Part shown: one piece after another, positions 1 to 62,713 of the stretch | How the letters are laid out: each line of letters opens with the position of its first letter | How positions within the stretch are numbered: position 1 is the stretch's first letter | Assembly (NCBI GenBank): GCA_016784385.1 | Contig: JADHUT010000003.1 | Coordinates: 2,923 to 66,922 of the forward strand | Source of the DNA: Candidatus Microgenomates bacterium | GTDB lineage: Bacteria; Patescibacteriota; Microgenomatia; UBA8517 | Reading direction: 5' to 3' | DNA length: 64,000 nucleotides | Notes under the pieces: model-generated | The model's input: only the letters and a program-made list of their open reading frames with translations | Database searches by the model: none | Told to the model about the DNA's origin: nothing | Made by a program: the position numbers and the translations under genes

Positions 1-385
1 TTAAATCAAATTTCTTTTTTAAATTAAAACTGATCACATCTTTGTTTACGACATTTCTACCTTTTTCATGCAAGTCTAAGATTGGATAGTTAGTACGTAT
101 ATAGTGCGACATTACATTGCCCACTTCTAAAATATCTTTATCTTTATATTTATCTAATATGTCTAGTGCAAGGGGTATTTCAACTACTCTTTCACCTGCT
201 ACGGTCCGATTGTACAGGTGATAAAAATATTTGTATTCTTTTTTATTAAAAGTGAATTTTTTGTGACCACGAAACAATTTGAAATACAAAAAACCCAATA
301 AATCTATAAGTGGTCGAAATATTCCCCCACCTCTAGAGAGTCTTAGTATTACCCAGTAAATCTTGTGTTTAAGTTTATTGTTCAT
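1..385 (-). CDS. Hypothetical protein whose 3' end runs off the window. It is not in the supplied ORF track because no stop codon lies inside the window.
   Basis: Manual reverse-complement translation from the ATG at 385..383 is open all the way to position 1. It reads MNNKLKHKIYWVILRLSRGGGIFRPLIDLLGFLYFKLFRGHKKF...ILEVGNVMSHYIRTNYPILDLHEKGRNVVNKDVISFNLKKKFDL. The start overlaps the 3' end of the fcl-like gene by 11 nt, like other gene junctions here. No family could be assigned. Confidence 0.35.
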   Translation of the reverse strand, partial: MNNKLKHKIYWVILRLSRGGGIFRPLIDLLGFLYFKLFRGHKKFTFNKKEYKYFYHLYNRTVAGERVVEIPLALDILDKYKDKDILEVGNVMSHYIRTNYPILDLHEKGRNVVNKDVISFNLKKKFDL

Positions 386-1304
386 TGAACCATTTTATAG
401 TTTCCGACAACCCTTCTTCAAACCCAACTTTCGATTTAAAACCAAATTCCTTGTAAGCTTTACTTGTATCCAACATCCTTCTCGGTTGCCCATTAGGTTT
501 TGTTTTGTCCCAAACAATTTCCCCCCCCAAACCAACTTTACTGCTAATTAATTTAACTAAATTCTTTATTGATATTTCTTTTCCGGATCCAATGTTTACA
601 GGATCTGACTTAGAATATTTCTTCGTTGCCAAAAAAATTGCTCTTGCCGCATCTTTAACATACAAAAATTCACGGGTCGCACTACCATCACCCCAAACAT
701 CCACTTTTTTTTGCCCTGAGTTATGTGCCTCAACAATTTTTTTTATTAGTGCTGGAATTACATGAGACCTTCCCTCATTAAAACTGTCTCCTGGGCCATA
801 TAAATTTACCGGAAGTAAATATATTGAATTAAACCCATACTGCTTCCTGTATGATTGGGATTGTACTAAAAGCATTTTTTTTGCCAATCCATAAGGAGCA
901 TTTGTACTTTCAGGATAACCTTTCCACAAGTCAGCTTCCTTAAATGGAATAGGTGTGTCTTTAGGGTAAGCACATACAGTTCCTAATGCCACAAATTTCT
1001 CAACTTTTGCTTTTCTAGCTTCTTCCATTAATTGAACGCCCATAATAAGGTTGTCGTAGAATAATTCTCCGGGTTTTTTGATATTTAAACCAATTCCTCC
1101 AACCATTGCAGCCAAATGTATCACTACATCCATACTACGAACAGCTCTTTTACAATCTTGGGCTTTTCTATAATCAAATTTGGATTTTTTGTATAAAAAT
1201 AAATTTTGCTTTGGAATTCCGTTTTTTATAAATTCCTCGACCACATATCTTCCCAAAAAACCATCACTCCCTGTTATTAATATCTTTTTATTTTTCAAGT
1301 TCAT
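375..1304 (-). CDS. fcl: GDP-L-fucose synthase (GDP-4-keto-6-deoxymannose 3,5-epimerase/4-reductase), an SDR-fold enzyme.
   Basis: N-terminal Rossmann motif [14 protein letters not shown]. Strong block similarity to E. coli Fcl: [30 protein letters not shown] versus [49 protein letters not shown], and [21 protein letters not shown]. Confidence 0.85.
   Translation of the reverse strand: [309 protein letters not shown]
521..528 (-). repeat. G8/C8 homopolymer inside the fcl coding sequence.
   Basis: ccccccccaa at 521-530 on the plus strand. On the coding strand GGT TTG GGG GGG GAA encodes ...GLGGE.... This is highly unusual in a genome of roughly 30% GC. Confidence 0.6.
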
Positions 1305-2275
1305 TCTAATGACTCCTTAACCAATATATCCTCAAAAGATTTTCTAGACCACTTGTCTTTTGTTTCTTTTTTACTAATAAAAATTTTTGCGTTATTTATA
1401 TATTGCTCGTGTTCATCTTTGCCCATGCTATTTAGGAATTCTATCAGGTTTTTGTGATTTTTAAATTTTGAAAAATCGACAAAAGTATTTAGAGGAATAT
1501 ATTTACCTATATTTGAGGGGCCCAAGTACACAGGGACACACCTGGCCACGAAACAATCAAATATTTTTTCTGTAATATATCCAGGGCTTGAAGAATTCTC
1601 AAAACATATGCAAAACTTGTATTTAGATAGTTTTTTGATTTTATCTCCTCTGTATTTACCTTTATAAGATTTTGAACTAATATCCCATCCTTTGCCGTAT
1701 AGGTCAAAATCGTCCTCAATATACTGAGACAATAAGTGGGCAATTTTATACCTTTGATCTTTTTGCCACAAAACAAACAGTTTATATAAAAATATAGATT
1801 TTTTGTTGCTGTTTATCATTACCAACAACTTTTTTTTAGAAAACGGTTTTTGTTTTACCACTTTTTTATCAATATCTTGTGGAAAGAAAAATTTCTTGTA
1901 TTTAGGATCTCTTTTGAAAAAGAATTTGTCATTCCAAGTGTAAATTTTTTTGAAAAATAAATGAAATAGTTTTATGTTATTTATAGGATTTGCAATAGGT
2001 GATTCGAAAGTAAATAAAATATTTTTCTTACGATTTTTAATCATTGTATATAGTGTTTTGAGCTCCCAGGGATAAGGTATGTCACAATAAAAGTAGTATT
2101 TAGGATTTTTAATCTTATCAATTGTATTAATTTCAATACCCTTTTCTTGCAATTTTCGCCTTAACCCATAGAAGGGGTTGTGTGAAACTTTGTGGTCAAA
2201 TATTTTATTCTCTAAAAACATTTTCCCATAATATGGCTTTATTGCTATCTCTATCTTTTTATTTATTCTTCTCAT
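1301..2275 (-). CDS. Alpha-1,3-fucosyltransferase, glycosyltransferase family 10.
   Basis: Carries the hallmark GT10 C-terminal motif FCICFENSSSPGYITEKIFDCFVARCVPVYLG (compare the FucT FxLxFENS...GYxTEK motif). Overlaps fcl by 4 nt and the upstream GT2 by 4 nt, so the three are probably translationally coupled. Confidence 0.7.
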   Translation of the reverse strand: MRRINKKIEIAIKPYYGKMFLENKIFDHKVSHNPFYGLRRKLQEKGIEINTIDKIKNPKYYFYCDIPYPWELKTLYTMIKNRKKNILFTFESPIANPINNIKLFHLFFKKIYTWNDKFFFKRDPKYKKFFFPQDIDKKVVKQKPFSKKKLLVMINSNKKSIFLYKLFVLWQKDQRYKIAHLLSQYIEDDFDLYGKGWDISSKSYKGKYRGDKIKKLSKYKFCICFENSSSPGYITEKIFDCFVARCVPVYLGPSNIGKYIPLNTFVDFSKFKNHKNLIEFLNSMGKDEHEQYINNAKIFISKKETKDKWSRKSFEDILVKESLE

Positions 2276-3096
2276 ATTATTCCCCTACTTCTAAAAAAAT
2301 CAAATATCGCAATTCTTGATTTTGCTGGCATCCAAAGTGTCACAAACTGGGCCAGGTTATAGACTACATCATATACTCTTGGGGTGTAACCATGTTTTTT
2401 TATTGCATTAAGCTTTATACTAAAGCCTAATTTTTCTAAATATTTTAAATCATATTTACTCAACGAATCAGGTAGTACTCTGTAACCAAGAAGATATTTA
2501 TCTATACTAGCAAAATTGTACTTACTGCCCAGTTTAAACCAAAGGTCTATATCTTCGCACGGAACTTTTTCTTCATCATAACCACCAAATTCTAAAACTG
2601 CACTCTTTTTAAACATAACAACAGGGTGGGCGAAGGGGCTATATTTAAACATGACTCTTTTCAAATCAGCAGATTTAGTTGGGTAATCTCGCTTTGAAAT
2701 TTTTTGATCATTCTCGTCAATAATTTCCATATTAGCGCCAACAATAGCCAACTTTTTTCTTTTAGAAAGTAGTTTATATTGAATTTTTAATCTTTCTGGC
2801 GAGGAAATGTCATCGGCATCCATTCTTGCTATAAAATCTGCTTTCGACAATTTGATACCTCTATTTAATGTTCCAGCAATATTAAGGTTTTTTTTATTTC
2901 TATACACTCTTATTCTGGAATCTTTTTTTGCATAGCTCCAGGCAATTTGTCCTGTTTTGTCATTGGAGCAATCATCTATTATTATTAATTCAAATTCGGA
3001 AAAGGTCTGTTGCAACATACTCTCAATCGCTTGCGCAATAAAGCTTTCAGCATTATGAGCAGGCATTACCACTGATATTAAAATCTTATTGGCCAT
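2272..3096 (-). CDS. Glycosyltransferase family 2.
   Basis: ISVVMPAHNAESFIAQAIESMLQQT...ELIIIDDCSNDKT, plus a DxD motif in RMDADDISSPERL. Confidence 0.8.
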   Translation of the reverse strand: MANKILISVVMPAHNAESFIAQAIESMLQQTFSEFELIIIDDCSNDKTGQIAWSYAKKDSRIRVYRNKKNLNIAGTLNRGIKLSKADFIARMDADDISSPERLKIQYKLLSKRKKLAIVGANMEIIDENDQKISKRDYPTKSADLKRVMFKYSPFAHPVVMFKKSAVLEFGGYDEEKVPCEDIDLWFKLGSKYNFASIDKYLLGYRVLPDSLSKYDLKYLEKLGFSIKLNAIKKHGYTPRVYDVVYNLAQFVTLWMPAKSRIAIFDFFRSRGII

Positions 3097-3923
3097 TGGT
3101 GTTGAAAGTGTAACTTATTAAAAAATATATATTTATACTTAAAAAAGAAAAAAAACAAAAGATGCTTTATTTTTGAAGTAAATATCATATTACTGTTGAA
3201 CATAATAAATCTAATATAAAAAACTAAATAATCAATGTTTTTCAAAAAAATTGGAAAACTAACGTCTTTTGAAATTTTGTCCAAAACTTTTCTTTTAAAA
3301 AAAGTGATCTCAGGTAAACAACTTATATCTTTAGCAATTTCTTCAATTCTGGAAAAAACAACTCCGTCAATTACCATATAGTGGTACAGCTTCAAATAAT
3401 TAGGACCATACAAGCAATTCAGCATAAAGTAAAAAGCATCCAACTCTTGATTTGTTACAGTAATTTTCTCGTTACCCTTGCCTATCTTCTGAACATATTT
3501 TAAAGTTTGTTGGTAGTTTAATATTTTCCTACCAGCCACTAAAATATCAGCTCTGGGTTCAATTTTGTTGTAGCCCTTTTTTGTACAAATATATTTGTAC
3601 TTACTCTCCTTAATATACAAAAAGCCCAACTTTTCTAGCTTCATAACGAATTTGACCACATCTTTCCTTTTTAAAACAAGATCAATGTCATTATCAACAA
3701 TTTCAGGAACATGTTTGAAGGTCTTAAAAAGAATAGGTAAAACTCCAATTTCTTTTGAAACCATTAATATAAGCGTTTTAGTTTTTGAGTATTTACTGTT
3801 TAGAGAATTACCAACAGAAACCACACTTTTAGAAAACTTATCATTTGTTCTATCAATATTTTTGGCATAAAAATAGGCCATGTTATTTTTCAACAAATAT
3901 TTGTAAAGTTTTTTTCTATTCAT
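3078..3923 (-). CDS. Hypothetical protein with a possible nucleotidyltransferase-fold signature and a low-complexity F/K-rich C-terminal tail.
   Basis: GVLPILFKTFKHVPEIVDNDIDLVLKRKD resembles the pol-beta-type NTase hG[GS]...D.D motif. The last ~55 codons cross the extremely AT-rich stretch 3100-3260, which looks like a spacer or promoter, without hitting a stop. Overlaps the tandem-Tmk gene by 8 nt and the downstream GT2 by 19 nt. Confidence 0.35.
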   Translation of the reverse strand: MNRKKLYKYLLKNNMAYFYAKNIDRTNDKFSKSVVSVGNSLNSKYSKTKTLILMVSKEIGVLPILFKTFKHVPEIVDNDIDLVLKRKDVVKFVMKLEKLGFLYIKESKYKYICTKKGYNKIEPRADILVAGRKILNYQQTLKYVQKIGKGNEKITVTNQELDAFYFMLNCLYGPNYLKLYHYMVIDGVVFSRIEEIAKDISCLPEITFFKRKVLDKISKDVSFPIFLKNIDYLVFYIRFIMFNSNMIFTSKIKHLLFFFFFKYKYIFFNKLHFQHQWPIRF

Positions 3924-5127
3924 ATATTTTTTTTACCAACGACTCCGTCAAATCTTTTTCATTTTTTCCATTAGCATCAAGTAAAAGTAAATTGTATTTC
4001 TTCGCCAAATGTTTATATTTTTTGTCGCAAAATTCAAAAAAGTCTATCGTATTTTCCGGCTTTCGCTTTTCTGCAACTTTAGGACTAATAGAAACTACAA
4101 CACCAATATCTGGACTCGATATCAAGTTACCAAAGATACTTGACCCGGAAATATTTAAGTACTTAAAGCTAACCAAGTAATCATATAGGTATCTATCCAG
4201 CAAAAGTATTCTATTTCCTCTAAACAACAATGAAACCAAGTATTGAATATATGAATCTGTAAAGTGAGCTAGTGCCCAAATAAAATTCTTTCCTTTTTTC
4301 TTGACCTTTTTAGTATTTTCCCTTGTTTTTTTATAATAGTTATCATCCAGAACAGGAGGTTTTATAATTTTTACTTTTTTCAAAAACTTAAAAATTACAT
4401 TGTCGTGGTAAAAATGAACAACTTTAGTTTTTATGTTCATTTTTTCGAGTAAATCAGAAAAATTTTTCACCAGTGTTGTCTTACCGGTACCATCTACTCC
4501 AGAAAACGAAATTGTTTTTACTTTATTTAATTTGAGAGCCAGCCTTATATAGAAAACAGATTGGGATAACCCAGCAACATAGATGTAACCCTTTTTGGTT
4601 AATTTTTTGTACTCATCAACTACACCTTTCAAAAATTTCTGGGGAGAGCTTGTCCAACCCTCTGATTTATAGTTTTTATTTCTTCTTATTATGTCTTTTT
4701 CATTTGCATCAACAAAAAATGAAAGTGTTGGCTTGGGGAAGTTTATATACAAAAAGTTAATAAATTTACTGTCAAGTTCTAAGTTTTTTCTAATTGTAAC
4801 TAAATAGTCAACCACATATCTATCTCTGATAATGATTTTATTTTTGAATATCTTTTGATAAAAAATATATTCAATCAAAAATTCTATGTATATAAATAAT
4901 GAATAAAAAAATGCGTAATAATTATTTGTACTTTTTCTGACCTTTTTATCCTCTACATATTGCGAAACATGTTTTTTTCCTAAAAGGAGCTTTGCTGCTT
5001 TTAGAAACAAAAAAGAATCTTCCTTTTTTACGCTAAGTTTTTTATTCTTTAGGACAGAATGTTTTAGTGACTTTCTTATCAAAGTAGTCTTACCAGAACC
5101 TGAACATCCTGAAAATGCAATTATCAT
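3916..5127 (-). CDS. Tandem-duplicated thymidylate-kinase-like P-loop kinase (two Tmk-like domains in one polypeptide).
   Basis: Two Walker-A motifs: IIAFSGCSGSGKTTLIRK in the N-terminal half and ISFSGVDGTGKTTLVKNF in the C-terminal half. Each is followed about 90 residues later by a Tmk-type DRY motif: IIIRDRYVVDYLVTI and LLLDRYLYDYLVSF. Confidence 0.6.
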   Translation of the reverse strand: MIIAFSGCSGSGKTTLIRKSLKHSVLKNKKLSVKKEDSFLFLKAAKLLLGKKHVSQYVEDKKVRKSTNNYYAFFYSLFIYIEFLIEYIFYQKIFKNKIIIRDRYVVDYLVTIRKNLELDSKFINFLYINFPKPTLSFFVDANEKDIIRRNKNYKSEGWTSSPQKFLKGVVDEYKKLTKKGYIYVAGLSQSVFYIRLALKLNKVKTISFSGVDGTGKTTLVKNFSDLLEKMNIKTKVVHFYHDNVIFKFLKKVKIIKPPVLDDNYYKKTRENTKKVKKKGKNFIWALAHFTDSYIQYLVSLLFRGNRILLLDRYLYDYLVSFKYLNISGSSIFGNLISSPDIGVVVSISPKVAEKRKPENTIDFFEFCDKKYKHLAKKYNLLLLDANGKNEKDLTESLVKKIYE

Positions 5128-5133
5128 AATAAT

Positions 5134-6267
5134 TTATTTCACTAATTTATTCATTTCGTTTTCAAACATTTTTGTAAAATCAAATTTTTCAGCCAATCTA
5201 ACAGCATTTTCTCTAGTTTCCTTATACATTTTCTTATTTGACATCAATTTTTTCAAACCATCATATAAACCTTCTTCATCCTCGTCCTTTACCACAAAAC
5301 CTGCTTTATATTTTTCTATATCTTTGGCAGTAGACACTATGTCATTCATAACAACTGGCAGCCCACATGCTAAATACTCCCTAACCTTCATTGAGTCACC
5401 AAATTCTGTCCAGGAATTAGTATTTGTGTAAAAAGCTAGCCCTATTGCACTTTTAGACAATATTTTTAAAACTTCACCATGTGGTTTTTTACCTAGAAAT
5501 ATTACGCTTTTTGATAATCCTAGTTTTTTAACCATTTTTTTAAGCGAGTTTTTATATCCACCTTCTCCGATAATGAGAAGTCTAGATTTTTTGAAATTCT
5601 TGTTAAGTTTTTTAAAGGTGTTAAAAATTAATTCATAATTTAGAGAGCTGGTTAAATTACTTACAATAACCAGGTCATGAATATTAATTTCTGAAACAGG
5701 AAATCTTTTTACTTTTTTAAACTCAGGTGTGTTGGGCAACAAAATATTTCTAACTTTTTCTACACCTTGCTTGTTTCGTAAATCTGTAATTTTTGACGAT
5801 ACATTCCATACATAATCAGAGTTCTTGATACAAAATCTATCAAACCAATGATACACCCAGTTTAATGCTTTATTATCAAAGCGTTTGTGAGCATAATCTG
5901 CAGTATAAAATACTGAATTTTTCACTAAACCAATTTTTTTGGATAAAACAGAGAAAAAACCATTAAATGGATCAATTCCTATGAAAACACTCGGCTTTTT
6001 ATCAATTTTAGAAAAAACAATGAAATTGATTGCATAATCCTGAATTCTATGTAGTAAAAATGGAATTTTTTTAAAACCGTAGTTTTTGTGTTTAACCACA
6101 CCACTAATATACTTCTCAACTATACTGTTATCTCCAAAATATAAAGGGTGTTTTATAAACACATACGAAATATTATTATCTTGTAAGTAAGTTTCAATCT
6201 CAGATCCAGTCCCATGAACTGGACTGCCATCTTTGTTAAAAACTGCATGACTTGCTATTACTATCAT
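5134..6267 (-). CDS. Glycosyltransferase family 4.
   Basis: C-terminal GT4 E-x7-E-like region REYLACGLPVVMNDIVSTAKDI, with a GT-B two-domain length of 377 aa. Confidence 0.75.
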   Translation of the reverse strand: MIVIASHAVFNKDGSPVHGTGSEIETYLQDNNISYVFIKHPLYFGDNSIVEKYISGVVKHKNYGFKKIPFLLHRIQDYAINFIVFSKIDKKPSVFIGIDPFNGFFSVLSKKIGLVKNSVFYTADYAHKRFDNKALNWVYHWFDRFCIKNSDYVWNVSSKITDLRNKQGVEKVRNILLPNTPEFKKVKRFPVSEINIHDLVIVSNLTSSLNYELIFNTFKKLNKNFKKSRLLIIGEGGYKNSLKKMVKKLGLSKSVIFLGKKPHGEVLKILSKSAIGLAFYTNTNSWTEFGDSMKVREYLACGLPVVMNDIVSTAKDIEKYKAGFVVKDEDEEGLYDGLKKLMSNKKMYKETRENAVRLAEKFDFTKMFENEMNKLVK

Positions 6268-6279
6268 TATTGTTATTTT

Positions 6280-7080
6280 CTACAAATTTTTTTCATACCA
6301 AGAAACTGTTTTTTTTAATCCTTCCTCAAACGTTGTTCGTGCTTCCCAATTAAGTAAGTTTTCAGACTGATAACTATCATGTTTTATGTTTTTTACTTTA
6401 TCCAAGTCTTCATCTTTATAAACGACATCAAATTCTCTGTCCATTATTTTTTTGAAAGTATCAACCACCTCCAATATCGACAATTCCGTGCCATACAACA
6501 AATCTAAATCTATGTTTTCTGAAACATCTAAGGCTTTATAAATTGCTGTGACTAAGTCATCTACAAACAAGAGGTCTCTCTTTACACTCCCATCGCCAAA
6601 AATATTAACTATACCCTTATCTTTTATGGACACATAAAACTGATAAACTAAACCCTTCTTGTTTTTGGGACCATATACATTAAATGGCCTTAGTATTATT
6701 GTCTTTTTAGCATGCTTTTCTCCCCAATTTTTCACCAGTTTTTCAGCCTGTAGTTTTGTTTGAGCGTAAATATCTGTTGGACTATCGTTATTGGCATGCA
6801 CAGCAAAGGTTGATAGAAATATAATCTTTTTAATATCACAACTAAGGGAACGATTCAATAAATCCTTTGTAAATTCTACATTTGAAGCAAATAATAGTTT
6901 TTCGGGAGGCAAAACTCTACCCGCCAAATGAACCAACACATACACATCTTTTAGAAATTTATCCAAGTCACCGCCTTCAATGAATACCTTGTGTGAAATC
7001 TTGTTTTTTTTAAGCCTACTTATGAAGTGGGAACCAATGAATCCGTCTGCACCCGTAACACCTATTTGCAATTCGCCCAT
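6280..7080 (-). CDS. NAD-dependent sugar epimerase/dehydratase-family protein (short SDR-fold).
   Basis: IGVTGADGFIGSHFISRL Rossmann motif and a YAQTK catalytic YxxxK motif. Confidence 0.7.
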   Translation of the reverse strand: MGELQIGVTGADGFIGSHFISRLKKNKISHKVFIEGGDLDKFLKDVYVLVHLAGRVLPPEKLLFASNVEFTKDLLNRSLSCDIKKIIFLSTFAVHANNDSPTDIYAQTKLQAEKLVKNWGEKHAKKTIILRPFNVYGPKNKKGLVYQFYVSIKDKGIVNIFGDGSVKRDLLFVDDLVTAIYKALDVSENIDLDLLYGTELSILEVVDTFKKIMDREFDVVYKDEDLDKVKNIKHDSYQSENLLNWEARTTFEEGLKKTVSWYEKNL

Positions 7081-7087
7081 ATATTTT

Positions 7088-8092
7088 TTATATCCATTTC
7101 TCTTTTTTAAGTATTTTTTCTAAATCGATTTTAGACAATCTATCTGTATTGTCGGAAGAATAACTATTCTTTGCACTCTTTCTATCAAAGCTCTTATATT
7201 TTTCCACTACTTTCTCAATTTCAATTTGAGGCAAAACTACAAAATAATTATCTTTTTGGACAGTTCTTGAGGATTCATAAGCACCTATTAGGGTTTCATG
7301 TAATTTTTCACCTGGTCTTATACCGATATTTTCGACATTTACTTTATCTTTTGAAAGATTATTACCCATTACATCCACAAGGTCAGAAATTGTGTGTGCG
7401 GGTGCTTTTCTGACAAAAACTTCACCACCTACCCCATCTTCAAGTGCTCTTAAAACCAAATCTACACTTTCAGACAAAGTCATTATGAATCTTGTCATGT
7501 TTGGATCAGTCACAGTTAATGGTTTTCCCTTTTCTATCAAAGACTTAAAAAGAGGAACAACTGAACCACGGGAACCCAACACATTTCCGTACCTAGTGGA
7601 AACAAAAACTGTTCTAGTTTTATCGTCATATAAATTAGCCGTAGTAATTAGTCTTTCTTGAAGTGCTTTTGCCATACCATAAGCATTTACTGGTTCTACT
7701 GCCTTGTCGGTTGAGAGCGCAACAACTTTTTCAACATTTTCGTCTTTTGCAGCTTCAATAATGTTCTGGGCTCCAACAACATTAGTCTTAATTCCCTCCC
7801 AAACGTTATATTCAACCTCTGTAATCCATTTTAGTGCAGCTGCATGAATTACCACATCCACACCCCTCATAACTTGTCTAACGCTCCTGTAATCCCTTAT
7901 ATCTCCCAATACAAATCTAAGTTTTTTGTTGTTTTTGTGGGAAAGCCTCATTTCACCCTGCTTATCTTCGTCTCTACTAAATATTATTACTTCAGAAGGG
8001 CCAAGTTTTAGTATTTCATCAACAAACATTTGACCAAATGAACCAGTACCTCCAGTAACCAATATCTTTTTACCACTAATTGCTTCTGACAT
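7088..8092 (-). CDS. UDP-GlcNAc 4,6-dehydratase-like polysaccharide biosynthesis protein of the CapD/PseB/FlaA1 family.
   Basis: ILVTGGTGSFGQMFVDEIL, a YGMAK YxxxK motif, and a length of 334 aa typical of the soluble PseB-type enzymes. Confidence 0.7.
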   Translation of the reverse strand: MSEAISGKKILVTGGTGSFGQMFVDEILKLGPSEVIIFSRDEDKQGEMRLSHKNNKKLRFVLGDIRDYRSVRQVMRGVDVVIHAAALKWITEVEYNVWEGIKTNVVGAQNIIEAAKDENVEKVVALSTDKAVEPVNAYGMAKALQERLITTANLYDDKTRTVFVSTRYGNVLGSRGSVVPLFKSLIEKGKPLTVTDPNMTRFIMTLSESVDLVLRALEDGVGGEVFVRKAPAHTISDLVDVMGNNLSKDKVNVENIGIRPGEKLHETLIGAYESSRTVQKDNYFVVLPQIEIEKVVEKYKSFDRKSAKNSYSSDNTDRLSKIDLEKILKKEKWI

Positions 8093-8189: not shown

Positions 8190-9020
8190 TTACTTTCCAA
8201 TATTCCCTTTTATGTATCCCGCAACCACACCGAACATTTCTATTGCCTTCACAAAAAACATTCCCAAAGATAAAAAGGGATGTGATATCAACTTTTTCCA
8301 TTTCCGGAAAAAAACCGGTCTCAAAAACAAATTTCCCTGCTTAATTGCCATTTCTGGATGCTTTTTAAGGTATACTCCTGCCTTTAGTGAGTAATAAAAT
8401 TTCTTCTTCGCTCTTTTAAATGGAGAGAACTTTTTTTCATTGTGGTGTATAAAACTTTTAACTCTTCCAATTTTTAATCCATCTTTTTTCATTCTGAGGG
8501 GAAGGTCGTAGTCTTCTGGACCAGTTATGTTTTTGTCATAACCCCCAAACTTCAAAAAAACATCTCTTCTGAAAAACCTTGCGGCTTCTATGGATTCTTC
8601 TCCTACATAGAATTCTCTCTCAAAAACTTTGAACTTTGTCCAAAAACCAGTTCCAAACGACTTTTCTGGAACAATAAGTCCCGCTAAATTTTTGTCCTTT
8701 TTAAATTTATTAACACAATCTTTTAAGACACTTGCCTCAAGCTTCATGTCTGCATCAAGAATAATAACGTACTCACCTTTTGAATTTTTTACACCAAAAT
8801 TTCTTTGTATAGATCGTTCTGGACCTTTATTAAAAGTTTTTGCTTTGTATTTTTTAACGATTTCAACAGTTTTATCGGTCGAATTATTGTCAACTAATAT
8901 GATTTCAAAGTTGGAAAAAGTTTGACTTATTAAGCTTTTTAATAATGTTTCAATAACTTCTTCTTCATTCTTGGTGGTTATTACTACAGAAACCAATGGC
9001 TTACTCATATTTCTTGTCAA
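8190..9020 (-). CDS. Glycosyltransferase family 2.
   Basis: VSVVITTKNEEEVIETLLKSLISQT...EIILVDNNSTDKT and a DxD motif in ILDADMKL. Confidence 0.75.
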   Translation of the reverse strand: MTRNMSKPLVSVVITTKNEEEVIETLLKSLISQTFSNFEIILVDNNSTDKTVEIVKKYKAKTFNKGPERSIQRNFGVKNSKGEYVIILDADMKLEASVLKDCVNKFKKDKNLAGLIVPEKSFGTGFWTKFKVFEREFYVGEESIEAARFFRRDVFLKFGGYDKNITGPEDYDLPLRMKKDGLKIGRVKSFIHHNEKKFSPFKRAKKKFYYSLKAGVYLKKHPEMAIKQGNLFLRPVFFRKWKKLISHPFLSLGMFFVKAIEMFGVVAGYIKGNIGK

Positions 9021-10495: not shown

Positions 10496-12697
10496 CTACT
10501 TGAGGGGATCCAATCCCTTAATCTCAATTTGTGGAGATTTAACTAAACATGAGTTCTCAGACCTCGGTTCTACTGTTATATAACGAGCCTTTCTTGCTGG
10601 AAACAAAAAAATAAATGTATCCTCATCAAATATCGGGGAAACCGGTGGAACCTGTGCTACCATTGGATCTGCTTCATAATCCCACACAACACCGTCTAGT
10701 GATGTAGCAACATGGCCGCCAGATATTGGATCACAACCAAAAGCAGAATGTTCAACTTTCAAACTAGTTACAAATATTTCCTCACCTATGTCAATCTGAA
10801 GGCTGTTTTCTAAATAATTCACATTTTTTGCATAAAACACTTTTTCTTTTTCATAGCCTTTTTTTGTATGCTCCAAATCATTTTTCCAAATTTTAAGAAG
10901 AGGGACACCATCAACTTGTGCCACATAAACTGGTTCAAGATAGGTTTCCATATACTGAAAGCTGTACCATTTTCTAGGAAACCATTCAAAATCCATCTCC
11001 ATCTCATATTCACCCTCTCTATTTGTCCCGCTCCAATGCCCGTTGAAAAACTTTATATCTGCCCTTAGTTTTTGTCTTGGAACATTACCCATTGTTGCTA
11101 TTGCAAGTCCCAATTTCGCATTTGGCTCCGCATTTTCATTCAACCACTCAACACCTTGTAAATACACATTCCCATAAGTGTTGCCCCAGTATGGAATATT
11201 TCTTTCCCTAGCACCTCTGATTCCCCCAATTAACTGATTAAAATACACATTTTGGTTTGGATGGATTCTGACCATCTCAAACACAACAAAGAATAAAGAC
11301 AATAATATCAAGGTTTTTATTAAAATTTCAGCAAATACTTTCTTTCTAAAAAACTTTCTAGTTAATTGAATTAGCCATAAAGCACCAATCCCAGATAAAA
11401 TTGCCATTGGGGGGACATATTCCATTATCTGTCTTACTCCTCCATAAATTGTGGTGTTTGGCCAAGAAACCCTTAGAATTGGTATTATTATCCAAAGTAG
11501 TACTAAGAAAGAAAAATCATCTCCCCTGAATACTTTAATTGTGGATTTTATAAATCCAAAAAAGGTCAACACTAAAACAGGTATTGGGGTTGTATATATT
11601 ATCCAGACAACAGGATAAGTATTCCAACCATTTTTGAGATATGAAGCCATTTCTCCAGGCGTACCGACACCAATTTGCTTGTAAAAACCGAAAATTTTGT
11701 CAATATTTGACCACGTATTTTCCCACAAAAAAGGCCATAGACTGAAAAACACGCCAAATGCCAAAAGTGGAACAAATAAAGTTACCATCCAAATCAATGT
11801 ATTTTTTCTTAAATATATAAATTTACTATTTTTTGTTTTTCTGGAAATTAATTCTTTAACAAAATAAAACAAAAACCACGGACCAATTATGAGAGGTAAA
11901 AACAAAGTGTTAAATTTCACTCCAGTTGCAAGACCTAAAAACAATGAAGAGGATAATATATACAAAACTTTTCTTTTTGTAATTCCTAAATAGAGAAAAA
12001 TTATTGTCAAACCATAAAAAGAAGCCAGCATGGGGTCCTTTATATTAAAGTGGGATTCTGAAAAAAATAAAGGGTATGAGGAAATTACAAAAGATGCCAC
12101 AACAGAAGCAAAAATACCAAATTTTTTGTAAACAAGAAGTGCTACTGCCAGAACTATTAGAAATGCCGACAATACCTCAGCTAAGTGATGAGATTCCAAA
12201 TCCCCCATTATTCCAAGTCTTTGATAAAACACGTCATTTGTTAGTGCTGCCAAAATCCCACCTACAGGAGGATGCCCCTCATCAAGTTTTTTGAAATCAC
12301 TGTACGGATATGTATCAAACTGAAAAAAACTTCTTCTGGTCTTTTTATCTTTTTGCAATTCATCAATAGCCTCTTGATACACAGGAGCACTATCATCTGA
12401 TTCCAAAATATCTGCAATACCACTTGGAGAAAGATAACAATTTCTTTTTATCCACTTAGGACAATCTGTGCTTAATCTTGGATATGCCTCTAAATCTGAA
12501 TAATCTTCATTACCAGTTGTCAAAAAATGAAAATAGGCTTGTCCTCTCATGAAATGAATAGGTTCATCCCAATTGAAACCATAATCTCCAAGAGTAGCAA
12601 TCCCTACCACTAAAAAAATAATAGGAACAAGTAGAATCATCCAAATCTTAGAAACTTTAATTATGAATTTACTTAACTTCATATATCCCAATAACAC
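10496..12697 (-). CDS. Large polytopic GT-C-like membrane protein with a C-terminal discoidin (F5/8 type C, galactose-binding-like) domain. The true start is probably an internal Met, for example MKLSKF.
   Basis: The N-terminal half has about 12 predicted TM helices with a DE-type first loop (YGFNWDEPIHFMRGQAYFHF). The C-terminal ~130 aa are beta-rich and end ...GVVWDYEADPMVAQ...ARYITVEPRSENSCLV, which is discoidin-like. The longest ORF overlaps the upstream MTase by 29 nt. Confidence 0.55.
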   Translation of the reverse strand: MLLGYMKLSKFIIKVSKIWMILLVPIIFLVVGIATLGDYGFNWDEPIHFMRGQAYFHFLTTGNEDYSDLEAYPRLSTDCPKWIKRNCYLSPSGIADILESDDSAPVYQEAIDELQKDKKTRRSFFQFDTYPYSDFKKLDEGHPPVGGILAALTNDVFYQRLGIMGDLESHHLAEVLSAFLIVLAVALLVYKKFGIFASVVASFVISSYPLFFSESHFNIKDPMLASFYGLTIIFLYLGITKRKVLYILSSSLFLGLATGVKFNTLFLPLIIGPWFLFYFVKELISRKTKNSKFIYLRKNTLIWMVTLFVPLLAFGVFFSLWPFLWENTWSNIDKIFGFYKQIGVGTPGEMASYLKNGWNTYPVVWIIYTTPIPVLVLTFFGFIKSTIKVFRGDDFSFLVLLWIIIPILRVSWPNTTIYGGVRQIMEYVPPMAILSGIGALWLIQLTRKFFRKKVFAEILIKTLILLSLFFVVFEMVRIHPNQNVYFNQLIGGIRGARERNIPYWGNTYGNVYLQGVEWLNENAEPNAKLGLAIATMGNVPRQKLRADIKFFNGHWSGTNREGEYEMEMDFEWFPRKWYSFQYMETYLEPVYVAQVDGVPLLKIWKNDLEHTKKGYEKEKVFYAKNVNYLENSLQIDIGEEIFVTSLKVEHSAFGCDPISGGHVATSLDGVVWDYEADPMVAQVPPVSPIFDEDTFIFLFPARKARYITVEPRSENSCLVKSPQIEIKGLDPLK

Positions 12698-13398: not shown

Positions 13399-14100
13399 TT
13401 ATGCTATATAGTTTTTTTCAATCTGGCTTAATAAATAATTGGGGATATTTTTGGGCTCACCCACTTGTGTTTGAACCTCTGGAGGTAATTTTTCAAAAAT
13501 CTCTTGCTCGACCATAAACCCAAGTTCTCTTTCTTTGTCCCAATATTGTCCTCCCAATCTGGCTGTTAAAGCCTTATCCTTATTTAAGTCCTGTCTTTTT
13601 TCCTCAACTTCATCAATTCGTTTTTCAAGTTCAACAACTCCGGTATCGCTTACTATGTCGTCAACATAAAACTGAAGGCGTTCCATAAAAGTAGAGTCCT
13701 CTTTAACCAAAGCTTTTTCGATAAAATCAGGACCAGTGGCATCCATCAGTTTCTGATCCGGCTTAACACTTTTTAATAATTTTTCGGCAAGAGATTTTTC
13801 TGTTTCATTAAAATTGCCAGGTTTAATTTTGAGCCTCTTCTCCCAATCATGGCACGCTGCTACATTTTTCAATGTATTTTTATCTTCAGTTGGTAATTTC
13901 AAAAGATCTGTAAGTTTGTCAACTACTGCCACCTGAACTAAACAATGTTCAGCCACATTTCTCCATTTATCTTTTTTGGAAAGTTTTCCACCTCTAAAAA
14001 GTAATCTCATTCCTGGATAAACGGACCATGCTAAACCTTGAAAGTAATTAGTTCTACCTATTTCTTTCGCAGACTTGGTTTCAGCTTGGGTTTCAGCCAT
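13399..14100 (-). CDS. HD-domain phosphohydrolase-like protein.
   Basis: NVAEHCLVQVAVV (H) ... AACHDWEKR (HD) spacing, and by eye a somewhat higher GC content than its neighbours. Confidence 0.5.
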   Translation of the reverse strand: MAETQAETKSAKEIGRTNYFQGLAWSVYPGMRLLFRGGKLSKKDKWRNVAEHCLVQVAVVDKLTDLLKLPTEDKNTLKNVAACHDWEKRLKIKPGNFNETEKSLAEKLLKSVKPDQKLMDATGPDFIEKALVKEDSTFMERLQFYVDDIVSDTGVVELEKRIDEVEEKRQDLNKDKALTARLGGQYWDKERELGFMVEQEIFEKLPPEVQTQVGEPKNIPNYLLSQIEKNYIA

Positions 14101-18894: not shown

Positions 18895-20751
18895 TTACTC
18901 GACCTCCCAAATTTCAGCATTAGCATTAGAAAAAATCCTCTTAACTCCTAGGTCACCTGGTGAAAAAGGAATTTTTTCAGAATACTCCTCAAATTTTACC
19001 AGATAAACATACTTTGCCTTAGTTTTTTGTAAGTATTTCTTAGCATTTGGTCTTTCCTTAGCAGAAAAAACTGAGGAATTGTATACTATTGTGTGCCCAG
19101 AATACTTTTTAACGTAACTTCTCAAGTTTGCAAATGATATTGGTTTTATATCTGTGTGCCAAGCACATTGTAAACATTCATTGTCATAAACCATTACTTT
19201 TCCGCCAGGTAAAGACTTAAGAAAAAGGAGTGCATAAATCTCACCTTTTGGAATTAGGTATTCCACTTTATTGAAATGTTCCCATCCTTTTCCAGTTAAA
19301 AGTTTTAATATTGCCTTTTTTGTTTTGAAAAAATGGACAGCCTCAGACGAAAAACCTTTTACAATATCACCTTCCGGGTGATTAAAATTTATCTGGACAA
19401 AACCAATCTTAACATCGTCTCCACTATGTTCAATATCAACCAACGGATTATTACGTAATTTAGTGGGAACTTTTATATTTTCGCCTTTTATCAAAAAATA
19501 TTCATTTTTTGTTTCTATTTCAACGTCCCCAGGCAATATCCATACATCTTCAGGGTTTTCTATTGTGTCAATTACCGAAGGTATATTTATAGATAAATTA
19601 AATTCATAATTTGGGGATGAGTAGTATGGATCTGTGTCATTTTGACCATAAACTCTAATATCTTTTATTTCGATTGCATCTTTTTTCTCATCATATATAT
19701 AAAATAATCTATAAATAAAACTCGTAAACCAATGGGAAGATTTACCTGATTGCAAGAAATCTCTTGAATCAATTTTGCTTGGGGGGTCTATTTTTGGATA
19801 TTTATCACTATACCGCTTGTAAAAATCCGACATTGTAATAGCTTCAACCCCGCCATTAATAAACTCTGCAACTACCTCAATCTGATTTTGAAATTCACCA
19901 GAATAACCACCAGCATCCAGATCTGACTCAAGCCCTACTGTAATTTGGTTAAAATCATTATTTTCATTGTTGAGATATGTGTCCAGCAATTTATTAAAGT
20001 ATCCTGTGTCCAATTTATTGGAGAGAACCAAGTAGTCTTGAGTGCTGAAAAGGCTACTTTCGTACCCATTCAAAGGATCCCTTGATGCCCATTGTATATT
20101 AACCATGTCCAACTTAGTATCCTCACTTGAAGCTGGCACAGCTGGGTGAAATTTGCTTGGATAATACGGTATTTGCCAAGGTTGACCCCAAAGTTGGTAA
20201 TTATCAGTTGAAAATTGATCAGCACATACAAGATTTGCTGTTACGTTGTACTTTTGCTTTATATATGACAGAGAAAAACCGTCTGTCCACCATGACCCTA
20301 CTGAGTTTGGGTAGTAACCAAAATTTTCCTTAAATTTTTCGAAAACACCGTCTATTAGTATCATTCTTTCTACTTTTGTATATCCAGAAAGAAATATGCT
20401 GTTTGAGTGATGCCAAGACCCACTGTCGTGATACTCTACACCCACACTATCGGAAAATGATGGAGTAACCTCTAAAAATAAGCCAAACTCTTGGAATTCA
20501 TCCATTTGAAGTATTTCTTGCACAACTTCTTCATTGTCTAATGCGTCGTAAGTTAATAGCCATGTGGCGGGTAAGTTATGTTTTTTTATAACAGAGTATT
20601 GGTTCCTAATACTTTCGGTCAAGTCTGGTGTATACCTTGAAACCCTGACTGGATTAACAATAGTAATAAATTTATTACTATCCTGTGCATAAACACTTGG
20701 AGAAAAGACGAAAAATAAAAATAAAATTGTTAAAATAAATATTTTCTTCAT
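18895..20751 (-). CDS. Large secreted protein of about 618 aa, possibly carbohydrate-active, family unassigned. The start is refined to the Met that forms an ATGA overlap with the upstream GT2 stop.
   Basis: From the ATG at 20751..20749 the protein begins MKKIFILTILFLFFVFSPSVYAQDS, a signal peptide. The N-terminal region is rich in aromatic/Trp residues (WWTDGF, WGQPWQIPYYP), typical of glycan-binding or processing folds. Confidence 0.45.
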   Translation of the reverse strand: MKKIFILTILFLFFVFSPSVYAQDSNKFITIVNPVRVSRYTPDLTESIRNQYSVIKKHNLPATWLLTYDALDNEEVVQEILQMDEFQEFGLFLEVTPSFSDSVGVEYHDSGSWHHSNSIFLSGYTKVERMILIDGVFEKFKENFGYYPNSVGSWWTDGFSLSYIKQKYNVTANLVCADQFSTDNYQLWGQPWQIPYYPSKFHPAVPASSEDTKLDMVNIQWASRDPLNGYESSLFSTQDYLVLSNKLDTGYFNKLLDTYLNNENNDFNQITVGLESDLDAGGYSGEFQNQIEVVAEFINGGVEAITMSDFYKRYSDKYPKIDPPSKIDSRDFLQSGKSSHWFTSFIYRLFYIYDEKKDAIEIKDIRVYGQNDTDPYYSSPNYEFNLSINIPSVIDTIENPEDVWILPGDVEIETKNEYFLIKGENIKVPTKLRNNPLVDIEHSGDDVKIGFVQINFNHPEGDIVKGFSSEAVHFFKTKKAILKLLTGKGWEHFNKVEYLIPKGEIYALLFLKSLPGGKVMVYDNECLQCAWHTDIKPISFANLRSYVKKYSGHTIVYNSSVFSAKERPNAKKYLQKTKAKYVYLVKFEEYSEKIPFSPGDLGVKRIFSNANAEIWEVE

Positions 20752-48872: not shown

Positions 48873-49528
48873 TTATTCCTAACTTTCACCAAATGTAGCA
48901 TACCTAAGATAAATTTTTTATCTACTTCGATCTTAAAACCTGCTTTTTTACAAATCTCGATTAAATAATTGTCTCTGTAAGTTTGAATGTGTGTATCTCT
49001 CCACACCCACCCCCGGGGATGGAAATGCAGCCACAACCACCAAACAACATTAAATAAATTACTGTCAGACGGAACAAGAAATACGCCGTACCCATTCTTT
49101 TTCATCATTCTTTTAACATTTTTCAATACTTTAACCGGATCTTTGACGTGTTCTAAAACTTCCATAATATATACAGCATCAAAAGTATTGTCGTTATATT
49201 TGAGCTCATGAGCATCTCCGACCTTGAACTGCATTGCCTTATTTTTTTTCCAATGATTTTTAGCCCAATCAATGGACGACTTTAAAACATCTATGCCAAT
49301 ATACTTTTTTGATTTGGTAATTTCATATATTTTTTTTGAAAAGACACCGTCTGCACATCCAATATCTAAAACTGTTTCGGCTCGCTCACTCAACTTTTGA
49401 ACTTCATCAAATCTTCTCCTGTGCCAATAGCGTTGTAGGGGGTCTATTTTTAAAGACTGAAAATACCAATTTGGAGGAACTTGCTCATGCATTTCTTCAG
49501 CTGTTTTATTTTCCGGAGTTTTCATCAT
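48869..49528 (-). CDS. Class I SAM-dependent methyltransferase.
   Basis: VLDIGCADGVFSKKIYE motif I and FDAVYIMEVLEHV. Confidence 0.7.
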   Translation of the reverse strand: MMKTPENKTAEEMHEQVPPNWYFQSLKIDPLQRYWHRRRFDEVQKLSERAETVLDIGCADGVFSKKIYEITKSKKYIGIDVLKSSIDWAKNHWKKNKAMQFKVGDAHELKYNDNTFDAVYIMEVLEHVKDPVKVLKNVKRMMKKNGYGVFLVPSDSNLFNVVWWLWLHFHPRGWVWRDTHIQTYRDNYLIEICKKAGFKIEVDKKFILGMLHLVKVRNK

Positions 49529-62708: not shown

Positions 62709-62713
62709 GTATT

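What the first reader, a model, noticed from the sequence alone, without database searches (positions are those of the whole stretch)
3078..5127. Tandem-duplicated thymidylate-kinase-like protein coupled to a nucleotidyltransferase-like gene inside a glycan operon
The 403-aa protein at 3916-5127 contains two complete Tmk-like modules, each with a P-loop and a DRY motif (SGCSGSGKTT...RDRYVVDY and GVDGTGKTT...LDRYLYDY). It overlaps by 8 nt the start of a 281-aa gene with an NTase-like hG..DxD signature (VDNDIDLVL). A kinase plus nucleotidyltransferase is the generic recipe for activating a sugar-phosphate to an NDP-sugar. P-loop Tmk-fold kinases are not known sugar kinases, however, so this could be a non-canonical route to a new nucleotide-activated donor. 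It could instead be a nucleotide-modifying or defence-type module (Tmk-like and NTase pairs occur in phage defence and toxin systems) that has been inserted here. The NTase-like ORF also reads through 160 bp of near-pure A/T (3100-3260) without a stop. That gives an F/K-rich tail, which is statistically surprising.
Basis: partly seen in the sequence, partly recalled or inferred. Interest (0 to 1): 0.55.

Follow-up and report, generated by a model that had tools for sequence, protein, structure and literature searches.

The report
Conserved kinase–nucleotidyltransferase module in glycan operons
Two overlapping genes in a candidate-phyla-radiation bacterium encode a doubled thymidylate-kinase-like protein and a small nucleotidyltransferase-fold enzyme; the pair recurs, often fused into one protein, inside sugar-polymer gene clusters of many bacteria and an archaeon, so it is probably an undescribed step in decorating cell-surface glycans.

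Summary
The 403-aa ORF (3916-5127, minus strand) is a real tandem duplication of a Tmk-fold P-loop module, and both catalytic motif sets are conserved. The 281-aa ORF (3078-3923, minus strand) overlaps it by 8 nt and has a minimal Pol-beta-type nucleotidyltransferase fold. It is a divergent relative of Pfam PF14907. The A/T-rich 3' end (84% A+T) encodes a conserved C-terminal helix and is not an artefact.

The pair is not an inserted defence module. It keeps the same place between glycosyltransferase genes from Microgenomates to Saccharimonadales. It also occurs as fusions: Tmk-Tmk-NTase, Tmk-NTase, NTase-Tmk (Bacteroides, Algibacter, Myxococcota, Nitrospirota, an archaeon), GT4-NTase, and Tmk fused to a polytopic membrane protein.

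It is not a true dTMP kinase. The score is far below the equivalog cut-off and the dTMP-binding segment is not recognisable.

Function is inferred only. The most likely reading is a glycan-tailoring step: phosphorylation, then NTase-fold elaboration of the phosphate, as with lasso-peptide PsmK/PsmN.

No prior characterisation was found beyond one passing mention of the pairing.

The parts
3916..5127 (-). 403-aa tandem-duplicated Tmk-fold P-loop protein (covalent pseudo-dimer)
4528..5127 (-). Module 1 (aa 1-200): P-loop GCSGSGKT (nt 5086-5109), KxED motif (E36 invariant, D37 nearly so), DRY (D102 at nt 4822-4824), LID RNK (R149 invariant, N150/K151 nearly so)
   Evidence: Invariant and nearly invariant columns in 40 homologues. 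Paralogous to module 2.
3919..4527 (-). Module 2 (aa 201-403): P-loop GVDGTGKT (nt 4477-4500), HFYH (H238, F239 invariant, H241 nearly so), DSYIQY (D291, Q295), DRY (D311, R312), LID RKPE (R355 invariant, K356/E358 nearly so). This is the module closest to the single Tmk-like domain of the widespread NTase-Tmk fusions.
   Evidence: The fusion C-domain matches module 2 at E 1.1e-29 and module 1 at E 8.8e-23.
3078..3923 (-). 281-aa minimal Pol-beta-type nucleotidyltransferase-fold protein, a divergent PF14907 relative
3519..3746 (-). NTase catalytic core (aa 60-135): FKT (in place of hG[GS]), D79-x-D81, and E122-P-R124 on the third strand
   Evidence: Invariant columns F66 K67 E74 D79 D81 G100 E122 R124. 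E122 aligns with the Asp of the hxhDh strand in the fusion family.
3081..3239 (-). Conserved aromatic/basic C-terminal region (aa 229-281) encoded by the 84% A+T stretch
   Evidence: Conserved in 20 homologues. Open frame improbable by chance, 0.8%. Predicted helices 229-241 and 248-268. Not strongly amphipathic and not TM-like.
3916..3923 (-). 8-nt overlap (ATGAATAG) between the stop of the kinase gene and the start of the NTase gene, consistent with translational coupling
   Evidence: Homologous pairs also overlap, e.g. by 4 nt in L001/L002, and the two are fused in P0008.
2272..3096 (-). GT2 glycosyltransferase overlapping the NTase gene's 3' end by 19 nt; co-conserved partner in the closest relatives
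   Evidence: PF00535 E 8e-36. 55-58% identical orthologues sit directly next to the module in L003/L004/L007.
1301..2275 (-). GT10 (fucosyltransferase-family) glycosyltransferase, co-conserved downstream
   Evidence: PF00852 E 2.4e-19. About 40% identical orthologues in L003, L007 and L030.
5134..6267 (-). GT1/GT4-type glycosyltransferase immediately upstream
   Evidence: PF00534 E 3.9e-23. Orthologues at 32-38% identity next to the module in L009 and L003.
8190..9020 (-). Second GT2; its orthologues sit immediately upstream of the module in distant lineages
   Evidence: PF00535. 35-41% identical GT2 directly abutting the module in L001/L002 and L005, and 48-64% identical nearby in L008/L009.

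Best explanation
The two genes form one translationally coupled, evolutionarily conserved enzyme module of glycan-assembly operons.

The first protein is a covalent pseudo-dimer of two divergent thymidylate-kinase-fold P-loop phosphotransferase modules. Both keep the ATP-binding P-loop, the DR[YF] motif and a basic LID, and neither has a recognisable dTMP site. The second protein is a minimal Pol-beta-type nucleotidyltransferase-fold enzyme of the PF14907 lineage with an intact two-metal carboxylate triad (D79, D81, E122).

Shown: the folds, the conserved catalytic residues, the co-occurrence and repeated fusion of the two domains, and their fixed place among glycosyltransferase genes, with physical links to a GT4 and to a polytopic membrane protein.

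Inferred: the module acts at the cytoplasmic face of the membrane on the nascent, probably lipid-linked, glycan. A Tmk-fold module phosphorylates a hydroxyl using ATP. The NTase-fold enzyme then elaborates that phosphate using an NTP or NDP-linked donor. The result is a phosphodiester-linked decoration. This is the logic reported for the lasso-peptide pair PsmK (P-loop kinase) and PsmN (uncharacterised NTase-family protein), where Ser phosphorylation is followed by PsmN-dependent addition of hexose onto the phosphate.

The duplicated kinase is most simply a fused version of the homodimer that Tmk-fold kinases form, with the two halves since specialised.
For: Folds and active sites: (invariant residues).

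Pairing conserved across lineages:
- In Saccharimonadales, the 26%-identical kinase is followed, with a 4-nt overlap, by a PF14907 gene in a flippase-GT2-GT4-GT2 operon.
- L007 and L008 have adjacent pairs. L010 has a single Tmk-like gene plus an adjacent PF14907 gene scoring 51 bits against a cut-off of 31.2.

Rosetta-stone fusions:
- P0008, Tmk-Tmk-NTase, 706 aa, in a locus syntenic with the window.
- P0058, P0115, P0161 and P0182, Tmk-NTase.
- 16 genome loci with NTase-Tmk proteins of about 450 aa in Bacteroides rodentium, Parabacteroides, Algibacter, Myxococcota, Nitrospirota, Acidobacteria, Omnitrophota, Elusimicrobia and Candidatus Argoarchaeum. The N-domain is homologous to the window NTase at 95.3%, E 2.4e-8. 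The C-domain matches module 2 at E 1.1e-29.

Glycan and membrane links:
- The fusions checked in detail lie among GT2/GT4 genes.
- P0169 is a GT4-NTase fusion. The next gene encodes a Tmk-like domain (GMDGTGKS, DRF) fused to a protein with about 9 TM segments.
- Specific GT2 and GT10 partners are co-conserved.

Against: - No substrate, product or activity is known for any member. The order of the two reactions and the nature of the acceptor are inference.
- I could not obtain the PsmN sequence, so its membership of PF14907 and its homology to the window protein are untested. PsmK is an HPr-kinase-family protein, not Tmk-fold.
- The conserved C-terminal tail of the NTase is not clearly amphipathic (muH 0.26), so it gives no independent support for membrane association.
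- The window NTase itself scores only 11.9 bits against PF14907, where the cut-off is 31.2.
Confidence: 0.42

Rival explanations
1. This is the first reader's main idea: a soluble salvage-type activation route. A Tmk-fold module phosphorylates a free sugar or other small alcohol X to X-P. The second module may take it one step further. The NTase-fold enzyme then couples X-P to an NMP, giving a new NDP-X donor that the flanking glycosyltransferases use.
For: - The module is always next to GTs that would need a donor.
- In Bacteroidota loci an APH/choline-kinase-like gene lies two genes downstream of the fusion, as in lic-type pathways.
- The pairing is also seen next to PEP mutase, where a phosphonate must be activated.
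Against: - All well-studied sugar-1-P and alcohol-P nucleotidylyltransferases use Rossmann-like or HIGH folds, not the Pol-beta fold. Pol-beta-fold enzymes almost always use a hydroxyl, not a phosphate, as the nucleophile (own knowledge).
- The nearest solved structures, LnuA and ANT(2''), nucleotidylate hydroxyls of sugar-like acceptors.
- Fusion of the NTase to a GT4, and of the Tmk-like domain to a protein with about 9 TM segments, fits action on a membrane-bound acceptor better than cytosolic metabolite synthesis.
Confidence: 0.3
2. The NTase-fold protein works like LicD or FKRP. It transfers a phospho-alcohol or phosphonate from a CDP/NDP-linked donor to a glycan hydroxyl and releases NMP. 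The Tmk-fold modules are NMP(/NDP) kinases that remove and recycle the released nucleotide.
For: - LicD-family glycan phosphotransferases have an NTase fold (own knowledge), and one family member hits Pfam LicD at E 0.0017.
- Tmk-fold proteins are by ancestry NMP kinases.
- There is an association with a phosphonate (PEP mutase) cluster family.
Against: - The nucleotide-monophosphate-binding segment of Tmk is not recognisable in either module.
- No cytidylyltransferase gene to make the donor was seen in the annotated part of the window operon.
- Recycling enzymes are rarely fused to the transferase they serve, and here the fusion occurs in both orders.
Confidence: 0.1
3. This is the first reader's alternative: a toxin-antitoxin or anti-phage defence pair, with a MenT/AbiEii-like NTase toxin and a kinase partner, inserted into the glycan operon.
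Against: - PADLOC gives only P-loop noise for the kinase and a spurious Cas2 hit at E 0.012 for the NTase.
- The pair keeps the same position between orthologous GT genes in distant lineages.
- It is fused to a GT4 and to a polytopic membrane protein.
- No mobile-element genes were seen next to it among the neighbours annotated.
Confidence: 0.03
4. The 403-aa protein is simply the organism's housekeeping dTMP kinase, duplicated, perhaps supplying dTDP for dTDP-sugars. The downstream ORF is unrelated.
For: Best sequence and structure matches are thymidylate kinases.
Against: - TIGR00041 scores 48.6 bits for two modules together, against an equivalog cut-off of 83.25.
- The segment between the P-loop and DR[YF] that binds dTMP in Tmk does not align. 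It is replaced by family-specific motifs, KxED and HFYH...DSYIQY.
- The gene is linked to, and fused with, the NTase-fold protein and sits in glycan loci across phyla.
Confidence: 0.03

Closest known systems
Thymidylate kinase (Tmk; Pfam PF02223, NCBIfam TIGR00041)
   Different: It is a tandem duplication in one chain. It scores far below the equivalog cut-off, 48.6 against 83.25. The dTMP-binding segment is not recognisable. It is genetically coupled to an NTase-fold protein inside glycan loci, not to nucleotide metabolism genes.
PF14907 (NTP_transf_5, 'uncharacterised nucleotidyltransferase')
   Same: It has the minimal NTase fold and a DxD plus a third carboxylate. 19/20 family members hit the model weakly. 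The family profile reaches gathering-threshold PF14907 proteins, and 54/57 of its distant hits are PF14907. The C-terminal aromatic/basic helix motif is shared with PF14907-positive relatives.
   Different: The window protein itself scores 11.9 bits against a cut-off of 31.2. The glycine of the hG[GS]/lKG motif is replaced (FKT), and the third carboxylate is Glu rather than Asp. The close subfamily is small, 30 clusters at E<=1e-30 among 1.84 billion representatives.
PsmK/PsmN tailoring pair of the lasso peptide pseudomycoidin (PMC6993621)
   Different: PsmK belongs to the HPr-kinase family, not the Tmk fold. The substrate there is a ribosomal peptide, and no lasso genes occur here.
LicD / fukutin / FKRP glycan phosphotransferases
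   Same: They are NTase-fold enzymes in glycan loci that create phosphodiester-linked decorations (own knowledge). One family member hits Pfam LicD at E 0.0017.
Bifunctional kinase-nucleotidyltransferase activating enzymes (NadR, HldE, FKP, PAPS synthase)
   Different: Their nucleotidyltransferase domains use Rossmann/HIGH or sulfurylase folds, not the Pol-beta fold (own knowledge). They are soluble metabolic enzymes and are not fused to GTs or membrane proteins.
Small-molecule O-nucleotidyltransferases LnuA and ANT(2'')
   Different: Sequence identity is 10-15%. They are resistance enzymes with no kinase partner. The window protein has about 60 extra N-terminal residues (three helices) and about 110 extra C-terminal, largely helical residues.

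Membership tests
dTMP kinase (Tmk, TIGR00041 / PF02223) | P-loop GxxGxGK[ST] | tested here: met
   GCSGSGKT and GVDGTGKT are present. G7, G12, K13 and G210, G213, G215, K216 are invariant in 40 homologues.
dTMP kinase (Tmk, TIGR00041 / PF02223) | DR[YFH] motif after strand 3 and a basic LID | tested here: met
   D102 (R/K103) and D311-R312 are conserved, as are the LID residues R149-N-K and R355-K-P-E.
dTMP kinase (Tmk, TIGR00041 / PF02223) | Tmk fold | tested here: met
dTMP kinase (Tmk, TIGR00041 / PF02223) | Score above the curated equivalog cut-off (83.25 bits) | tested here: not met
   48.6 bits for the whole two-module protein. The Pfam domain-level cut-off of 27 is met at 41.9.
dTMP kinase (Tmk, TIGR00041 / PF02223) | Recognisable dTMP-binding segment between the P-loop and DR[YF] | tested here: not met
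   Alignments to solved Tmk cover only the P-loop, the DR[YF] strand and strand 4/LID. The intervening region carries family-specific invariants: E36 (with D37 nearly invariant), H238/F239, D291/Q295.
dTMP kinase (Tmk, TIGR00041 / PF02223) | dTMP + ATP -> dTDP activity | not testable with these tools
   Needs an enzyme assay or complementation.
PF14907 NTP_transf_5 | Score at or above the Pfam gathering threshold (31.2 bits) | tested here: not met
   The window protein scores 11.9 bits, E 0.16. 19/20 family members hit at E<=1, best 1.8e-6.
PF14907 NTP_transf_5 | Transitive homology to threshold-passing members | tested here: met
   The A1 profile hits the L010 partner (PF14907, 51.4 bits) at E 4e-19 and the L009 partner (35.8 bits) at E 3.6e-16. 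54/57 more distant profile hits are PF14907, best 1.3e-24.
PF14907 NTP_transf_5 | Pol-beta-type NTase fold with DxD plus a third carboxylate | tested here: met
PsmK/PsmN-type phosphorylate-then-elaborate tailoring pair | Kinase and uncharacterised NTase-family protein encoded together | tested here: met
   8-nt overlap here. Adjacency or fusion in more than 25 loci.
PsmK/PsmN-type phosphorylate-then-elaborate tailoring pair | NTase homologous to PsmN | tested here: inconclusive
The only link is a shared structural template, ANT(2'') 4xje.
PsmK/PsmN-type phosphorylate-then-elaborate tailoring pair | Kinase of the HPr-kinase family; peptide substrate with lasso cyclase genes | tested here: not met
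   The kinase is Tmk-fold. The neighbours are glycan genes, with no lasso genes seen.
LicD family | Consistent match to PF04991 | tested here: not met
Defence / toxin-antitoxin NTases (MenT, AbiEii, CBASS etc.) | Match to defence-system models and a defence-island or TA context | tested here: not met
   PADLOC gives no meaningful hit. The context is a conserved glycan operon. Structural similarity to MenT1 is at fold level only, 8% identity.
Bifunctional kinase-nucleotidyltransferase donor-activating enzymes (NadR/HldE/FKP type) | Nucleotidyltransferase of the Rossmann/HIGH or GlmU-like fold acting on a phosphate nucleophile | tested here: not met
   The NTase is Pol-beta-type. The kinase + NTase co-occurrence itself is met.

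The most novel reading that the evidence does not exclude
The Tmk-fold/PF14907 module is a previously unrecognised and phylogenetically broad glycan-modifying system, found in CPR bacteria, gut Bacteroidota, Myxococcota, Nitrospirota and archaea. Under this reading it performs chemistry not yet described for polysaccharides. One possibility is stepwise ATP-dependent phosphorylation of a glycan-linked or small phosphate/phosphonate, followed by Pol-beta-type transfer. That would give a phosphodiester-, pyrophosphate- or nucleotide-linked surface decoration made without the classical CDP-donor (LicC/LicD or TagF) machinery.
Probability: 0.3. Interest if true: 0.8.

Novelty: new variant of a known kind. 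Interest (0 to 1): 0.6.

Why it matters
Cell-surface glycans of CPR bacteria are essentially uncharted, and those of gut Bacteroidota shape host and phage interactions. This module is a conserved component of polysaccharide loci, repeatedly fused, that no family library names and that no searchable paper characterises. It therefore marks a missing enzymatic step.

If it installs phosphate-linked decorations by a kinase plus Pol-beta-NTase route, three things follow:
- It would add a new mechanism alongside the LicD-, TagF- and Stealth-type phosphotransferases.
- It would give PF14907, including lasso-peptide PsmN-type proteins, a general functional logic.
- It would explain the 'thymidylate kinase + PF14907' genes noted beside PEP mutase in a phosphonate cluster family.

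The fused versions in cultivable Bacteroides, Parabacteroides and Algibacter make the question directly testable by genetics and glycan analysis.

Tried and rejected
- NCBIfam: no family-level model for either protein or for the 450-aa fusions, only sub-threshold dTMP kinase hits.
- PADLOC: only P-loop noise and a spurious Cas2 hit, so the defence reading was rejected.
- The AlphaFold-database fold library was not available, so no annotated AFDB neighbours could be consulted.
- Literature searches: 'PF14907' gave one relevant paper. 'NTP_transf_5', 'Tmk-like', 'thymidylate kinase-like' + 'polysaccharide', and multi-term combinations gave nothing relevant. A jumbo-phage review offered only the NadR precedent.
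- I could not confirm from the literature that PsmN is a PF14907 member.
- Hydrophobic-moment test of the conserved C-terminal tail: muH 0.26, not TM-like. My idea that it is an amphipathic membrane anchor is therefore unsupported.
- Mis-joined assembly was rejected: about 50 homologues share the two-module architecture.
- A frameshifted tail was rejected: the tail is conserved in 20 homologues.
- Single-module relatives P0062 and P0055 sit in a different conserved context (TPR protein, GT1, STAS and unknowns next to purine genes) with no annotated PF14907 neighbour. They gave no clear functional clue.


Full report
**What is in the sequence.** On the minus strand, ORF 3916-5127 (403 aa) and ORF 3078-3923 (281 aa) exist exactly as described and share 8 nt, ATGAATAG. 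They lie in an unbroken run of minus-strand glycan genes:
- GT2 (8190-9020)
- a Polysacc_synt_2 4,6-dehydratase-type gene (7088-8092)
- an epimerase/reductase (6280-7080)
- GT1 (5134-6267)
- the two ORFs of interest
- GT2 (2272-3096, overlapping the 281-aa ORF by 19 nt)
- GT10 (1301-2275)
- an epimerase of the GDP-sugar type (375-1304)

The identical 403-aa protein is on record as a hypothetical protein of a Candidatus Microgenomates bacterium, which belongs to the CPR.

**The 403-aa protein is a true tandem duplication.**
- Pfam Thymidylate_kin matches in two stretches at E 1.1e-10.
- The two halves match each other by BLASTP (31% identity, E 4e-9) and as family profiles (99.8%, E 2.7e-28).
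- An AF2 model built on 40 homologues is confident (pLDDT 88.8, pTM 0.85).
- About 50 full-length homologues of 394-425 aa share the two-module architecture, so a mis-joined assembly is excluded.
- Both P-loops, both DR[YF] aspartates and a basic LID residue in each module are invariant. Both modules therefore look catalytically competent.

**It is not a bona fide dTMP kinase.** The equivalog model TIGR00041 scores 48.6 bits for the two modules together, against a cut-off of 83.25. The stretch between the P-loop and DR[YF], where Tmk binds dTMP, does not align to solved Tmk. That stretch carries family-specific invariants instead: E36, with D37 nearly invariant, in module 1, and H238/F239 and D291/Q295 in module 2.

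**The 281-aa protein has an NTase fold.**
- It has no above-threshold family match.
- It has about 20 close homologues with invariant D79, D81 and E122, plus F66, K67, E74, G100 and R124.
- 19 of 20 family members hit PF14907 weakly.
- The family profile hits PF14907 proteins that pass Pfam's threshold at E 4e-19 and 3.6e-16.
- In an exhaustive profile search of 1.84 billion representatives, 54 of 57 sampled distant hits are PF14907.

It is therefore a divergent offshoot of PF14907. The close subfamily is small, with 30 clusters at E<=1e-30.

**The start codon and the A/T-rich tail.** Invariant Y7, Y9 and N13 support the start at 3923. The public 267-aa gene call is truncated at the N-terminus. 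The stretch 3100-3260 is 84% A+T. Its 53 codons are open only in the coding frame, and only 0.8% of shuffles stay open. The encoded tail, FFFYxKYKYxxFNKLxFxHxW, is conserved in all homologues. Related motifs close the C-termini of threshold-passing PF14907 relatives. The read-through reflects selection and is not a sequencing artefact.

**The two proteins belong together.** The evidence is conserved adjacency plus fusion in several architectures.

Adjacency:
- The most distant full-length kinase homologue (26% identity, Saccharimonadales) is followed, with a 4-nt overlap, by a PF14907 gene in a flippase-GT2-GT4-GT2 operon.
- Reference-genome loci L007 and L008 have adjacent pairs. L010 has a single-module kinase plus a PF14907 gene.

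Fusions:
- P0008 (706 aa) is Tmk-Tmk-NTase, in a locus syntenic with the window: GT1, fusion, GT2, GT10.
- P0058, P0115, P0161 and P0182 are Tmk-NTase.
- Sixteen genomes carry NTase-Tmk proteins of about 450 aa: Bacteroides rodentium, Parabacteroides, Algibacter, Myxococcota, Nitrospirota, Acidobacteria, Omnitrophota, Elusimicrobia, Candidatus Argoarchaeum and others. Their N-domain is homologous to the window NTase (95.3%, E 2.4e-8). Their C-domain is closest to module 2 (E 1.1e-29).
- P0169 is a GT4-NTase fusion. The next gene encodes a Tmk-like domain (GMDGTGKS, DRF) fused to a protein with about nine TM segments.

Context:
- In every context examined for the pair or its fusions, the neighbours are glycosyltransferases and sugar-nucleotide-modifying enzymes.
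- Specific GT2 and GT10 partners are co-conserved.
- PADLOC finds nothing.

The 'inserted defence module' reading is therefore not supported.

**How it most likely works (inference).** Three catalytic centres are conserved and repeatedly fused. The module is tied to GTs and to a polytopic membrane protein. I therefore favour a tailoring role on the nascent glycan, with confidence about 0.4. In this reading, ATP-dependent phosphorylation by a Tmk-fold module comes first, and the NTase-fold enzyme then elaborates the phosphate to give a phosphodiester-linked decoration.

The precedent is pseudomycoidin. There PsmK phosphorylates a Ser, and PsmN is required to put hexose on that phosphate. PsmN is an uncharacterised NTase-family protein modelled on ANT(2'') 4xje, and it depends on its DxD (PMC6993621; PMC9266682). 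[quoted passage not shown] The pairing therefore also appears where a phosphorus-containing group must be activated or attached.

The duplicated kinase is most simply a covalent version of the Tmk-type homodimer with diverged halves. That the Tmk fold forms homodimers is from my own knowledge, and I could not inspect the packing in the model.

**Rivals.**
- A LicD-like transferase with NMP recycling (about 0.1), a toxin-antitoxin or defence pair (about 0.03) and a housekeeping Tmk (about 0.03) are less likely, for the reasons listed with each rival.

**Limits.**
- No activity, substrate or product is known.
- PsmN's homology to this family is untested.
- The tail is not clearly amphipathic.
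- The AFDB fold library was unavailable.

**Novelty.** Both folds are known, and PF14907 exists as an uncharacterised family. I found no description of the Tmk-fold/PF14907 module as a conserved, often fused component of polysaccharide loci, beyond the one-line remark above. I rate it a new variant of a known kind, namely kinase + NTase-fold tailoring/activation logic, with moderate-to-high interest. It is widespread, and it is testable in cultivable Bacteroidota.

Noticed in passing
window 25644-27176 (-): This 510-aa ORF fuses an N-terminal vitamin K epoxide reductase (VKOR, PF07884, E 2e-22) domain to a dihydroorotate dehydrogenase (PF01180, E 9e-54). That is an unusual pairing of a membrane quinone/thiol oxidoreductase with a pyrimidine-synthesis enzyme in a CPR genome.
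   Followed up: no
window 10496-12697, 29152-35418, 40340-42025, 57876-63982 (mostly - strand): At least nine paralogous PMT_2-type (GT-C, polyprenyl-phosphate-sugar-dependent) membrane glycosyltransferases occur here. There are also two PTPS_related/YfhO-like membrane proteins (42062-45477) and a Wzx-like flippase (56368-57849). Most of the 64-kb window is glycan machinery.
   Followed up: partly
window 3078-3923 (-) versus P0066: The public gene call for the NTase-like protein (267 aa) starts at Met15. It omits residues Y7, Y9 and N13, which are invariant in the family. The 281-aa start, which overlaps the kinase gene, is the better model.
   Followed up: yes
L015 7850-8755 and L013 6673-7584: In Bacteroides rodentium an APH/choline-kinase-like gene of about 300 aa (HGDFCPWN...IDWE) lies two genes downstream of the NTase-Tmk fusion. 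Pfam gives APH at E 3.6e-11 and Choline_kinase at E 2.8e-6. In Algibacter a gene of the same size with the same motif follows the fusion directly; it was recognised by motif only and was not scanned. This may be a third conserved member of the module in Bacteroidota.
   Followed up: partly
L013 75-2010: The Algibacter locus carries two further NTase-like genes upstream. One was confirmed as Polbeta/NTP_transf_2 (PF18765 E 4e-6). The other was recognised only by a DLDVF motif.
   Followed up: no
L001 10119-15514; L005 9319-11481; L029 9010-12174: Large polytopic membrane proteins of 555-1246 aa, with about 8-10 TM-like segments and no Pfam family, directly follow the module in several lineages. 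They are weakly related to each other. The L001 1246-aa protein also has a weak CBM_4_9-like region.
   Followed up: partly
P0052 (460 aa, metagenomic): A single Tmk-like module of this family is fused to a C-terminal class-I SAM methyltransferase domain. This is another fusion to a tailoring enzyme.
   Followed up: no
L027 and L028 (contexts of P0062, P0055): More distant single-module relatives of about 235 aa sit in a different conserved neighbourhood: a giant TPR protein, GT1, a STAS-domain protein and several unknowns next to purF/purL. No PF14907 gene is annotated there.
   Followed up: no
window 3078-5127 versus whole window: The two genes are lower in G+C (26.6% and 28.5%) than the window as a whole (33.7%). 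The operon 375-8092 averages 30.9%. This is typical of variable glycan loci but was not analysed further.
   Followed up: no
window 13399-14100, 18895-20856, 35443-37281, 49525-51072, 54666-56435: Five ORFs of 233-653 aa have no Pfam match at the thresholds used. They are embedded among the glycan genes.
   Followed up: no
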